Shown: one piece after another, positions 18,001 to 21,000 of the stretch
Layout of the letters: the number at the start of each line of letters is the position of its first letter
Numbering within the stretch: the first letter of the stretch is position 1
Assembly (NCBI RefSeq): GCF_988243305.1
Contig: NZ_OZ547136.1
DNA: 64,000 bases
Strand: one strand, 5' to 3'
Made by a program: the position numbers

Positions 18001-21000
18001 TCAGAGTAACTCCCGCCAGTTGCGAGCAAAAAAGCCGCTACGCTTTAGCTATACGTGCTAATTCAAGAGAAGAGACCATGGACAACGACAAAATTGATCA
18101 ACACAGCGACGAAATTGAAGTTGAGAGCGAAGAAAAAGAGCGCGGCAAAAAAATAGAAATAGATGAAGACCGACTCCCCTCCCGGGCGATGGCAATTCAT
18201 GAGCATATCCGCCAGGATGGTGAAAAAGAGCTGGAACGCGACGCAATGGCACTACTGTGGTCAGCCATTGCGGCGGGTCTGTCGATGGGCGCTTCATTAC
18301 TGGCAAAAGGGATATTTCATGTCGAACTGGAAGGTGTGCCGGGCAGCTTCTTGCTGGAGAATCTCGGTTATACCTTTGGTTTTATTATCGTCATTATGGC
18401 CCGCCAGCAATTATTTACCGAAAACACCGTGACTGCGGTACTACCCGTCATGCAAAAACCGACAATAAGCAACGTTGGCTTACTTATGCGGTTATGGGGC
18501 GTCGTGCTGCTGGGTAATATTCTCGGGACAGGTATTGCGGCGTGGGCATTTGAATATATGCCAATCTTCAATGAAGAAACTCGCGATGCATTTGTCAAAA
18601 TCGGCATGGATGTGATGAAGAACACCCCCAGCGAGATGTTTGCCAACGCGATCATTTCCGGCTGGCTGATCGCCACTATGGTTTGGATGTTTCCTGCAGC
18701 GGGTGCGGCAAAGATTGTGGTGATTATATTGATGACCTGGCTTATTGCCCTGGGTGACACCACTCACATCGTTGTCGGTTCTGTTGAAATCCTCTATCTG
18801 GTGTTTAACGGTACGCTGCACTGGAGCGATTTCATCTGGCCCTTCGCACTACCTACTTTAGCGGGGAACATCTGCGGCGGCACCTTTATCTTCGCGTTAA
18901 TGAGTCATGCACAGATCCGTAACGACATGAGCAACAAGCGCAAAGCAGAAGCACGCCAAAAAGCAGAACGTGCGGAAAACATTAAGAAAAATGATAAAAA
19001 CCCGGCATAAATGGCGAGGGTTTAAGCAATCGAGCGGCAGCGTACTTACCCCGCAGTCCATTAGCGGGTATACTCATGCCGCATTGTCCTCTTAGTTAAA
19101 TGGATATAACGAGCCCCTCCTAAGGGCTAATTGCAGGTTCGATTCCTGCAGGGGACACCAGATACCCTTCAAACCAAATCTACCTTCACCCCGTAAAAGA
19201 TGGGTTTGGCAGCACACTTGCCCTATATCTACTCATTTTTACTGCAACAGGTTGAAATCTCAGCACTGTCAGAAAGCGCTGATGACTAAACAGCCCTGGG
19301 CCGGGCGATGTAACCATCATACAGAATCCTGATAGCGAAATATGGCGTGACTCGATACTTCACTCTGCAATGCATTCCTTGATGAATTCGCAGGCCCGTG
19401 ATACTCGGGACAGGTCGCTGAATGACGACAATGTCCTGGAAATCAGCGAACCGCGTATCCGGAGTACATTTGAGCGACTGTACCAGAACATGAATGAGGC
19501 GTTTGGATTAGGTGATTATTAGTTGGGCTAAGCATTTTTGTATTATTATTTTCCGGTTGAGGGATATGGAGATATCGACAACAACCGGAAAAAGTTTACG
19601 TCTATATTGCTGAAGGTACAGGCGTTTCCATAACTATTTGCTCGCGTTTTTTACTCAGGAAGAAAATGCCAAATAGCAACATCAGGCAGACAATACCCGA
19701 AATTGCGAAGAAAACTGTCTGGTAGCCTGCGTGGTCAAAGAGTATCCCAGTCGGCGTTGAAAGCAGCACAATCCCAAGCGAACTGGCAATTTGAAAACCA
19801 ATCAGAAAGATCGTCGACGACAGGCGCTTATCAAAGTTTGCCACGCTGTATTTGAAGACGGATATGACACAAAGTGGAACCTCAATGGCATGTAACAGCT
19901 TCACTAATGAAATAATCCAGGGGTTAACGAACAACGCGCAGGAAAGGATACGCAACGCCATAATCACAACACCGATAAGTAATGCATTTTTTGGCCCTAC
20001 CCGATTCACAAAGAAAGGAATAATCGCCATGCACAGCGCTTCGAGTACCACCTGGAATGAGTTGAGATAACCATACAGGCGCGTTCCTACATCGTGTGAT
20101 TCGAATAAACCTGCATAAAAGACAGGAAAGAGTTGTTGATCAAAAATGTTATAGAAAGACCACGTCCCCACAATAAATATGACGAAAACCCAGAAGTTTC
20201 GATCCTTGAAAACTGCGATAAAATCCTCTTTTTTTACCCCTCCTGCATCCGCCGCTACACACTGGTGATCCTTATCTTTAAAACGCATGTTGATCATCAT
20301 AAATACAGCGCCAAATAGCGAGACCAACCAGAAGTTGATATGGGGACTGATACTAAAAAATATACCGGCAAAGAACGCGCCAATAGCATAGCCAAAAGAT
20401 CCCCAGGCGCGCGCTGTTCCATATTCGAAATGAAAATTTCGCGCCATTTTTTCGGTGAAGCTGTCAAGCAAACCGCATCCCGCCAGATACCCCAGGCCAA
20501 AAAAGAGCGCCCCCAGAATTAGACCTACAGAAAAATTGCTTTGCAGTAACGGTTCATAAACGTAAATCATAAACGGTCCGGTCAAGACCAGAATGAAACT
20601 CATACACCAGATGAGCGGTTTCTTCAGACCGAGTTTATCCTGAACGATGCCGTAGAACATCATAAATAGAATGCTGGTAAACTGGTTGACCGAATAAAGT
20701 GTACCTAATTCAGTCCCTGTTAATCCTAGATGTCCTTTCAGCCAAATAGCGTATAACGACCACCACAGCGACCAGGAAATAAAAAAGAGAAATGAGTAAC
20801 TGGATGCAAAACGATAGTACGCATTTCTGAATGGAATATTCAGTGCCATAATTACCTGCCTGTCGTTAAAAAATTCATGTCCTATTTAGAGATAAGAGCG
20901 GCCTCGCCGTTTACTTCTCACTTTCCAGTTCTTGTCGACATGGCAGCGCTGTCATTGCCCCTTTCGCTGTTACTGCAAGCGCTCCGCAACGTTGAGCGAG

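What the first reader, a model, noticed from the sequence alone, without database searches (positions are those of the whole stretch)
19161..19601. Orphan 441-bp segment between argW and cscB with a stop-free 50-codon frame
This stretch is unexplained by the flanking genes. It contains an ORF-like frame (...MHSLMNSQARDTRDRSLNDDNVLEISEPRIRSTFERLYQNMNEAFGLGDY*) that I do not recognise and that has no obvious ribosome-binding site. It could be a remnant of whatever was originally integrated at argW, part of the attachment site, or a small gene.
Basis: seen in the sequence. Interest (0 to 1): 0.35.

Follow-up and report, generated by a model that had tools for sequence, protein, structure and literature searches.

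The report
Dead gene fragment beside argW
The 441 bases between the argW tRNA gene and the sucrose permease gene cscB hold the decayed middle piece of a mobile-island gene (DUF4942 family), which is a scar of past integration at this tRNA hotspot and not a working small gene.

Summary
argW ends at 19160, cscB's stop codon lies at 19602-19604, and the 50-codon ATG frame is at 19370-19522. The frame length is not special: 30-36% of shuffles do as well.

Window 19227-19505 is a sharply bounded, 72-80% DNA-identical internal fragment of a DUF4942 gene (nt 112-445 of about 867; Pfam PF13708, E=1.5e-9). Intact copies of this gene are the last gene of the CP4-like "yee" island module. The fragment has:
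- a 55-nt deletion;
- two TAA codons in its upstream part;
- no start and no C-terminal 130 residues;
- 12 of 23 family-invariant residues replaced.

The ORF's last codons and its stop come from unrelated junction DNA.

The whole segment is single-copy in 2644 of 5426 complete E. coli genomes. In all 13 loci inspected it lies directly beside cscB. The frame is not conserved: an in-frame TGA allele is exact in 1428 of 2588 carriers, and another strain has an independent TAG.

The left edge (19161) is exactly where prophages at argW end and where the csc and dsd haplotypes diverge. No argW direct repeat survives.

RefSeq already labels this a DUF4942 fragment. Ordinary; low interest.

The parts
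19086..19160 (+). argW, tRNA-Arg(CCT). Its 3' end (19138-19160, or 19146-19160) is the att core used by elements that integrate here.
   Evidence: ARAGORN and Rfam tRNA at 63.4 bits. attR copies of the core sit directly before the segment in the O157:H7 locus L007, the P22-like prophage record L014 and K-12 pawZ.
19161..19226 (.). 66-bp spacer of unknown origin between the tRNA end and the gene fragment. Possibly the tRNA-proximal end of the lost island.
   Evidence: Colinear identity to a full-length DUF4942 gene is 19-33%, which is random. It occurs at one place per genome in 2630 genomes and nowhere else. It matches nothing in other fetched loci. It has no significant RNA structure, z=-0.68. 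It is unrelated to the K-12 flank after attR.
19227..19505 (+). DUF4942 gene relic, corresponding to nt 112-445 of an ~867-nt gene (aa 38-149 of 288). It has a 55-nt deletion at about 19305-19315 and TAA codons at 19287-19289 and 19311-19313 in the upstream reading frame.
   Evidence: blastn to L015 8890-9756 gives 72-80% identity inside and 19-33% outside, so both edges are sharp. tblastn finds 50% aa identity to aa 76-151, plus a second colinear HSP to aa 38-70. Pfam DUF4942 profile positions 5-62 of 190 are matched. Of 23 family-invariant residues, 11 are kept.
19370..19522 (+). The 50-codon ATG frame of the finding (stop-free from 19286). It is the residual open frame of the relic. Its last codons (LGDY, stop) lie in non-homologous junction DNA.
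   Evidence: ORF list and translation. Homology ends at 19505. The frame is interrupted by TGA (19460-19462) in L006, L008, L010, L012 and L013, and that allele is exact in 1428 of 2588 genomes. L016 has an independent TAG.
19506..19601 (.). 96-bp cscB-proximal spacer, found only at this locus.
   Evidence: One place per genome in 2640 genomes. No similarity to the DUF4942 gene. The last 77 bp (megablast) are kept in L002, where the rest of the segment is deleted.
19549..19592 (-). Perfect 11-bp inverted repeat (TTTTCCGGTTG / CAACCGGAAAA, 22-nt loop) 10 nt past the cscB stop codon. Possibly a 3'-end stem-loop of the cscB transcript.
   Evidence: the repeat finder pair I1. RNA fold gives -17.3 kcal/mol, z=-3.34. 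The stem is invariant across 11 loci apart from a one-base deletion at 19589 in two of them, L008 and L010. It has no U-tract, and the terminator scan did not call it.
19602..20849 (-). cscB sucrose permease, the first gene of the csc cluster that always accompanies the segment.
   Evidence: ORF of 415 aa. Annotated as MFS / oligosaccharide transporter or sucrose transport protein in all 13 loci inspected.

Best explanation
The segment is non-functional filler. Its core (19227-19505) is the decayed internal fragment of a DUF4942-family gene. In intact form this gene is the last gene of the conserved CP4-like island module (DUF932, antirestriction, RadC, DUF987, CbeA, CbtA, DUF5983, DUF957, DUF4942).

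The most likely history is as follows. An integrative island of this kind once sat at the 3' end of argW, in the usual orientation (tRNA, integrase, module, DUF4942). Deletions then removed everything from just after the tRNA into codon ~38 of the gene, and everything 3' of codon ~149. A 55-nt microhomology deletion and point mutations followed. The remaining scar became fixed as the left end of the csc haplotype (window 19161-24729), which replaces dsdC and most of dsdX.

The 50-codon frame is simply the longest stretch of the old reading frame that has not yet been hit in this strain's lineage.

Shown: the homology and its sharp edges, the lesions, the lack of frame conservation, the single-copy csc-linked distribution, and the coincidence of the left edge with the att crossover point.

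Inferred: the order of events, that the 66-bp spacer is island-derived, and whether the island brought csc or merely preceded it.
For: - The frame matches Pfam DUF4942 at E=1.5e-9, covering profile positions 5-62 of 190.
- The full-length gene is 281-288 aa, with the domain at aa 87-276, and is the last gene of the yee module in L003 and L015; L004 carries the same module with a disrupted DUF4942 copy (internal stop, no CDS annotated).
- DNA homology is 72-80% over 19227-19505 and falls to 19-33% on both sides. There is a 55-nt deletion flanked by GCRATGAAA microhomology.
- The upstream part carries two AAA-to-TAA changes.
- Of 23 family-invariant residues, 12 are replaced.
- No closer full-length relative exists: the best is 53% in 1.84 billion representatives, and 39-59% against 113 full-length family members that are 68-100% identical to the reference copy used as query (L015).
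- The frame is not conserved. The TGA allele is exact in 1428 of 2588 genomes, and L016 has an independent TAG. Of 26 variable sites, about 20 are non-synonymous and 6 synonymous. The variable-site density is 0.11, against 0.07-0.17 in the non-coding flanks. Pairwise pN/pS ranges from 0.17 to 1.55.
- The segment is in 2644 of 5426 complete genomes, chromosomal, at one place in nearly all (2648 places; median 1, highest 2). It lies beside cscB in all 13 loci inspected.
- The left edge is the att boundary, and the K-12 flank diverges from base 1 after the core.
- RefSeq PGAP already labels it 'DUF4942 domain-containing protein', in one genome explicitly as a partial pseudogene.
Against: - No integrase, no other module gene and no direct repeat of the argW 3' end survives in the window. 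The island ancestry therefore rests on one 279-bp fragment plus its position.
- The relic is unusually divergent from all sampled family members. Its donor lineage is unsampled, and the time of decay cannot be placed.
- pN/pS estimates rest on very few changes. Some pairs (0.17, 0.35) would on their own be compatible with weak constraint.
- The 66-bp and 96-bp flanks remain unexplained.
Confidence: 0.85

Rival explanations
1. It is a genuine small protein-coding gene of 50-60 aa, the 'DUF4942 domain-containing protein' annotated in RefSeq. It would be a miniaturised derivative of the island gene that the host has kept.
For: The frame is open in this window and in several lineages (window, L001, L005, L007, L009, L011). 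PGAP calls a CDS there in many genomes. The Pfam score is above the gathering cut-off. Some pairwise pN/pS values are below 1.
Against: - An in-frame TGA is present in at least 55% of carriers, and there is an independent TAG in L016.
- There is no Shine-Dalgarno motif and no promoter-like site.
- The PGAP start in the identical locus falls on an ATA codon, so the call is homology-driven.
- Only 58 of 190 domain positions are covered.
- 12 of 23 invariant residues are lost.
- The stop codon comes from unrelated junction DNA.
- An ORF of this length arises by chance in 30-36% of shuffles.
Confidence: 0.03
2. It is a conserved functional intergenic region. It would hold processing or termination signals for argW, the 3' end of the cscB transcript, or sequence needed by integrases acting at argW. 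The protein similarity would be incidental.
For: The whole 441 bp is retained at 93-100% identity in about half of E. coli. A perfect 11-bp inverted repeat sits 10 nt past the cscB stop with z=-3.3, and it is kept even when the rest of the segment is deleted. At least three kinds of element integrate exactly at the left edge.
Against: - The variable-site density in the segment (0.07-0.17) is at or above that of the cscB 3' end (0.07), so there is no sign of constraint.
- Rfam finds only the tRNA.
- The 66-bp part has no significant structure.
- The hairpin lacks a U-tract and explains at most 44 bp.
- K-12 and other dsd-type strains use the same att core with a completely different flank, so the flank is not needed for integration.
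- L002 lacks about 360 bp of the segment yet keeps argW and an intact csc cluster.
- The protein and DNA homology is too strong to be incidental.
Confidence: 0.1
3. The fragment was never part of an island at argW in E. coli. It was co-imported with the csc genes from another species as one block of foreign DNA, for example by transduction or recombination, with the relic already dead on arrival.
For: The relic is strictly linked to csc. It resembles no E. coli DUF4942 paralogue by more than 59%. Phage records exist that physically join an argW-type attR, the segment and cscBKA. Published work regards csc as horizontally mobile between Escherichia and Citrobacter (PMC11251922).
Against: The left edge of the block coincides to the base with the argW att crossover point, as expected for site-specific integration in situ. 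No other species' representative genome contains the relic. This rival changes only the history, not the verdict that the segment is a dead relic.
Confidence: 0.25

Closest known systems
DUF4942 (Pfam PF13708) genes at the distal end of CP4-like / P4-integrase genomic islands of Enterobacteriaceae (for example L015 WP_001290180.1 and L003 WP_073521347.1; 'aec79' and 'restriction methylase' in some source names)
   Same: Significant profile and DNA homology over aa 38-149. Same strand orientation relative to the tRNA as in tRNA, integrase, module, DUF4942 islands. Located at a tRNA integration hotspot.
   Different: Only 279 bp of about 867 survive. It is frameshifted and carries nonsense codons. 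The confidently folded C-terminal half of the protein (aa ~150-280 in the AF2 model) is absent. Aa identity is 39-59%, against 68-100% between the sampled intact members and the reference copy. None of the neighbouring module genes is present.
The argW-dsdCXA / csc variable region of E. coli (Jahreis et al. 2002; Moritz & Welch 2006, as cited in PMC3032704, PMC4366372 and PMC11251922)
   Same: The window shows the published arrangement: yfdC, argW, cscB, cscK, cscA, cscR, truncated dsdX, dsdA. argW is the recombination and integration hotspot.
   Different: The papers I could read do not discuss the 441-bp argW-cscB spacer or its DUF4942 content. The two primary papers are not in the held library, so I cannot say whether they mention it.
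pawZ and other attR scars of argW-integrating prophages (CPS-53/KpLE1 in K-12)
   Same: Both are leftovers of integration at argW, and both abut the 15-bp core CTGCAGGGGACACCA.
   Different: pawZ is a duplicated tRNA 3' end. The present relic is a fragment of island cargo with no surviving repeat.

Membership tests
DUF4942 (PF13708) protein family | Sequence scores above the Pfam gathering threshold | tested here: met
   38.3 bits against a cut-off of 25, E=1.5e-9.
DUF4942 (PF13708) protein family | Complete domain (190 profile positions) within an intact ORF of about 280 aa | tested here: not met
   Only profile positions 5-62 are matched. Gene nt 112-445 of 867 survive, with a 55-nt deletion and two TAA codons. 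A full-length member has the domain at aa 87-276.
DUF4942 (PF13708) protein family | Family-invariant residues conserved | tested here: not met
   11 of 23 invariant and 12 of 26 near-invariant positions are retained in the covered stretch.
DUF4942 (PF13708) protein family | Context: last gene of the module DUF932, antirestriction, RadC, DUF987, CbeA, CbtA, DUF5983, DUF957 | tested here: not met
   In the window only 66 bp separate the relic from argW. The module is present in L003, L004 and L015.
tRNA-integrated genomic island (P4-type integrase, CP4-like) | Begins immediately 3' of a tRNA gene, at the att core | tested here: met
   The csc-type and dsd-type haplotypes diverge from the first base after the core. 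Prophage attR copies abut base 19161.
tRNA-integrated genomic island (P4-type integrase, CP4-like) | Integrase gene next to the tRNA | tested here: not met
   No ORF of this kind lies between 19161 and cscB. Compare L002, where an integrase fragment follows argW.
tRNA-integrated genomic island (P4-type integrase, CP4-like) | Direct repeat of the tRNA 3' end at the far boundary | tested here: not met
   No second copy of the 23-mer or the 16-mer (up to 3 mismatches) in 64 kb. The right junction lies inside dsdX at 24730 with no att-like sequence.
Small protein-coding gene | Reading frame kept open across strains, under purifying selection | tested here: not met
   TGA allele in 1428 of 2588 genomes. 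Independent TAG in L016. About 20 non-synonymous to 6 synonymous variable sites. Pairwise pN/pS of 0.17-1.55 on very few changes.
Small protein-coding gene | Translation and transcription start signals | tested here: not met
   No Shine-Dalgarno motif upstream of 19370. No promoter-like site in 19000-19750. These are consensus scans only; expression was not measured.
Intrinsic terminator (for the 19549-19592 hairpin) | GC-rich stem-loop followed by a U-tract | tested here: not met
   The stem is present, but it is followed by an A-run on both strands and the scan did not call it.

The most novel reading that the evidence does not exclude
In the minority of lineages where the frame is still open, including this window, the 50-60 aa N-terminal helical piece of DUF4942 is expressed. 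It would act on its own, for example by interfering with full-length DUF4942 proteins of incoming CP4-like islands. The relic would then be a domesticated fragment and not junk.
Probability: 0.03. Interest if true: 0.4.

Novelty: already known. Interest (0 to 1): 0.08.

Why it matters
It matters little beyond tidy annotation.

The result explains an "orphan" spacer in a much-studied locus (argW, csc, dsd). It shows that the RefSeq "DUF4942 domain-containing protein" CDS calls here are fragments that are better marked as pseudogenes.

It also adds one concrete piece of evidence that the csc haplotype's left end was shaped by a CP4-like integrative island at argW. That fits the accepted view of argW as a recombination hotspot.

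It opens no new question of general interest.

Tried and rejected
- **Direct repeat of the argW 3' end.** I searched the whole window for the 23-mer and the 16-mer with up to 3 mismatches. Only the tRNA itself matched.
- **Closer intact relative of the fragment.** The word-indexed search of 5.8 billion proteins returned only short E. coli fragments. The exhaustive HMMER search of 1.84 billion representatives gave a best full-length identity of 53%. Two scans of one genome per species, one with peptide patterns and one with a 24-mer, found nothing.
- **Origin of the 66-bp and 96-bp flanks.** They are unique to this locus in E. coli, with no match to K-12, the CP4-like loci or the rest of the window. 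Their origin remains unknown.
- **RNA element.** Rfam found only the tRNA. The 66-bp region has no significant fold.
- **Function of the parent family.** There was no NCBIfam (tested only on the 78-aa fragment), PADLOC or PDB sequence hit. The AF2 model is only half confident, with mean pLDDT 60, and Foldseek against PDB gave nothing below E=0.17. The source name 'restriction methylase' is therefore unverified.
- **A 12-nt two-copy direct repeat near the relic edges** (19229-19240 and 19528-19539, 83% identity). I judged it a chance match.
- **Primary papers.** Jahreis 2002 and Moritz & Welch 2006 are not held.

Full report
**Observation.** The window is an E. coli chromosome segment.
- yfdC lies at 18078-19010 (+), argW tRNA-Arg(CCT) at 19086-19160 (+), cscB at 19602-20849 (-) and cscK at 20911-21834 (-).
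- The gap is therefore exactly 19161-19601 (441 bp).
The frame is stop-free from 19286, which makes 78 codons.
- There is no Shine-Dalgarno motif before the ATG and no promoter-like site in 19000-19750.
- The length alone means nothing. Among 5000 shuffles of the 441 bp, 30% give a stop-free run at least as long and 36% give an ATG ORF at least as long.

**What the frame is.** The 78-codon translation matches Pfam DUF4942 (PF13708) at 38.3 bits against a cut-off of 25, E=1.5e-9. The match covers only profile positions 5-62 of 190.

RefSeq/PGAP already annotates a 'DUF4942 domain-containing protein' CDS on this spot in many genomes. In the 100%-identical locus of strain 746 that CDS starts at window 19340, which is an ATA codon. 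In one genome PGAP marks it as a partial pseudogene.

Full-length DUF4942 genes encode 281-288 aa, with the domain at aa 87-276. They are the last gene of the conserved CP4-like module: DUF932, antirestriction, RadC, DUF987, CbeA (YeeU), CbtA, DUF5983, DUF957, DUF4942.

**Anatomy of the relic.** I aligned the segment to a full-length gene (L015 8890-9756).
- Identity is 72-80% over window 19227-19505, which corresponds to gene nt 112-445 of 867.
- Both edges are sharp. Colinear identity drops to 19-33% at 19161-19226 and to 24-31% at 19506-19601.
- Inside the relic there is a 55-nt deletion at about 19305-19315, flanked in the parent gene by the microhomology GCRATGAAA. This deletion shifts the frame.
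- The upstream part (19227-19314) carries two lysine codons mutated to TAA, at 19287-19289 and 19311-19313.
- The gene's first ~37 codons and last ~139 codons are gone.
- The last codons of the 50-aa ORF (LGDY, stop) lie beyond the homology. The ORF is closed by unrelated junction DNA.
- In the stretch that is covered, only 11 of 23 family-invariant and 12 of 26 near-invariant residues are kept.
- An AF2 model of a full-length member is confident only for aa ~140-280, and the relic lacks that part entirely.

**Distribution and conservation.**
- The 441 bp occur in 2644 of 5426 complete E. coli genomes at 93-100% identity. They are chromosomal and occur at one place in nearly all carriers (2648 places; median 1, highest 2).
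- In all 13 loci inspected, cscB follows directly.
- The 66-bp left part and the 96-bp right part occur nowhere else in E. coli. They also match nothing in the other loci fetched.

The reading frame is not conserved.
- Loci L006, L008, L010, L012 and L013 carry CGG-to-TGA at 19460-19462. A 61-mer bearing that allele is matched exactly in 1428 of 2588 genomes.
- The most divergent orthologue, L016, has an independent TCG-to-TAG change.
- Among 11 loci, the frame has 26 variable sites in 237 bp (0.11 per site). The flanking non-coding parts have 0.07-0.17 and the cscB 3' end has 0.07.
- About 20 of the 26 changes are non-synonymous, close to the neutral expectation.
- Pairwise pN/pS ranges from 0.17 to 1.55 on very few changes.

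Taken together, this is neutral decay.

**No intact close relative.**
- The 5.8-billion-protein search found only short E. coli fragments.
- The exhaustive search of 1.84 billion representatives found 53% identity as the best full-length hit.
- Against 113 full-length family members the relic is 39-59% identical, whereas those members are 68-100% identical to the reference copy used as query (L015).
- Two scans of one genome per species found nothing.

The donor lineage is therefore unsampled, or the relic has drifted far.

**Relation to the attachment site.** The left edge at 19161 is exactly the base after the att core.
- In O157:H7 SS52 an integrated element ends with TTCGATTCCTGCA-GGGACACCA, followed by the segment.
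- In a P22-like prophage record the 15-bp core CTGCAGGGGACACCA precedes the segment.
- In K-12 the same core (pawZ, the attR of CPS-53) is followed by an entirely unrelated 95 bp and then dsdC.

So the csc-type and dsd-type haplotypes diverge from the first base after the tRNA, as expected if the csc-type DNA entered or was remodelled through site-specific integration. The csc-type block runs to window 24729 and rejoins K-12 sequence inside dsdX at 24730. Neither that junction nor the rest of the 64 kb holds a repeat of the argW 3' end. No integrase or other island gene survives.

**Other possible functions.**
- Rfam finds only the tRNA.
- The 66-bp part has no significant fold, z=-0.68.
- A perfect 11-bp inverted repeat at 19549-19592, 10 nt past the cscB stop, folds at -17.3 kcal/mol with z=-3.3. 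It is retained even in an ETEC strain where an ISEc46-associated deletion removed the rest of the segment. It may be a 3' stem-loop of the cscB transcript. It lacks a U-tract and is not a canonical terminator.
- That same ETEC locus keeps argW and an intact csc cluster without about 360 bp of the segment, which argues against an essential role.

**Explanation.** The best reading (confidence about 0.85) is that this is a dead relic of a DUF4942 gene. It is the scar of a CP4-like integrative island at argW, fixed as the left end of the csc haplotype, and the 50-codon frame is the part of the old frame not yet broken in this lineage.

The sequence of events is inferred, not shown. The inferred steps are integration, deletion from near the tRNA into codon ~38, 3' truncation, the 55-nt deletion and the point mutations. 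Whether the island carried csc, preceded it, or was co-imported with it is also open.

Rivals:
- A real small gene (0.03).
- A functional intergenic region (0.1, essentially only the hairpin).
- Co-import of an already dead fragment with csc (0.25). This changes the history but not the verdict.

**Comparison with what is known.** Published work describes csc as inserted between the variable argW region and dsdX, with argW as a recombination hotspot (PMC3032704; PMC4366372; PMC11251922). The papers I could read do not discuss the spacer. The primary papers (Jahreis 2002; Moritz & Welch 2006) are not held. RefSeq annotation already names the fragment. The parent family's function remains unknown: there is no PADLOC or PDB sequence hit and no significant Foldseek hit.

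**Verdict.** The feature is ordinary and effectively already annotated. Interest is low.

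Noticed in passing
window 19549-19592: A perfect 11-bp inverted repeat (TTTTCCGGTTG / CAACCGGAAAA, 22-nt loop) sits 10 nt past the cscB stop. It folds at -17.3 kcal/mol with z=-3.3. The stem is conserved in all csc+ loci seen and is kept in L002 when the rest of the spacer is deleted. It has no U-tract, so it is not a canonical terminator.
   Followed up: partly
L014 (ON470589.1) 6985-11323; also ON470594, ON470608, ON470622: Four GenBank 'phage genome' records contain the argW attR core, the whole 441-bp segment and cscB-cscK-cscA. This is host chromosome inside phage records. The cause is either mis-bounded prophages or specialised-transduction-like particles. PMC11251922 noted csc in four coliphage genomes without explaining it.
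   Followed up: partly
L002 (NZ_LR882990.1) 3794-6077: ETEC strain L7_E1373 has argW, a truncated CPS-53-type integrase, ISEc46 (tnpA plus a TnpB/InsQ gene), and then only the last 77 bp (megablast; perhaps 2-4 more) of the segment before cscB. This is an IS-associated deletion of the relic.
   Followed up: partly
L007 (O157:H7 SS52) 3978-4000: The O157:H7 element at argW ends in a 23-bp attR copy of the tRNA 3' end that lacks one G (TTCGATTCCTGCA-GGGACACCA). A 'recombinase family protein' gene lies about 130 bp upstream of the repeat.
   Followed up: no
L010 (O111:H- 110512) 1061-2500: A tyrosine integrase on the minus strand lies 196 bp 5' of an intact argW, with prophage genes in place of yfdC. 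This element sits on the 5' side of the reconstituted tRNA, unlike the others.
   Followed up: no
window 24729/24730: The right junction of the csc haplotype lies inside dsdX, with only the last 218 bp of dsdX retained. There is no att-like repeat at the junction, so this end was made by deletion or illegitimate recombination, not site-specific recombination.
   Followed up: yes
window 19340 (L001 6180): The RefSeq CDS WP_223362157.1 (60 aa) begins on an ATA codon. Other genomes get 50-, 60- or 68-aa versions, or no CDS at all, for the same DNA. The annotation of this pseudogene fragment is therefore inconsistent.
   Followed up: partly
L010 4260-5174; L012 2942-4189: Some carriers have inactivated csc genes: cscK has an internal stop in O111:H- 110512, and cscB has an internal stop in CH4790.
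   Followed up: no
NZ_CM135829.1 4507579-4507644: An assembly labelled 'strain DH5alpha' carries the csc-type argW flank. A K-12 derivative should not have it (K-12 has CPS-53 and dsdC here). The strain is possibly mislabelled.
   Followed up: no
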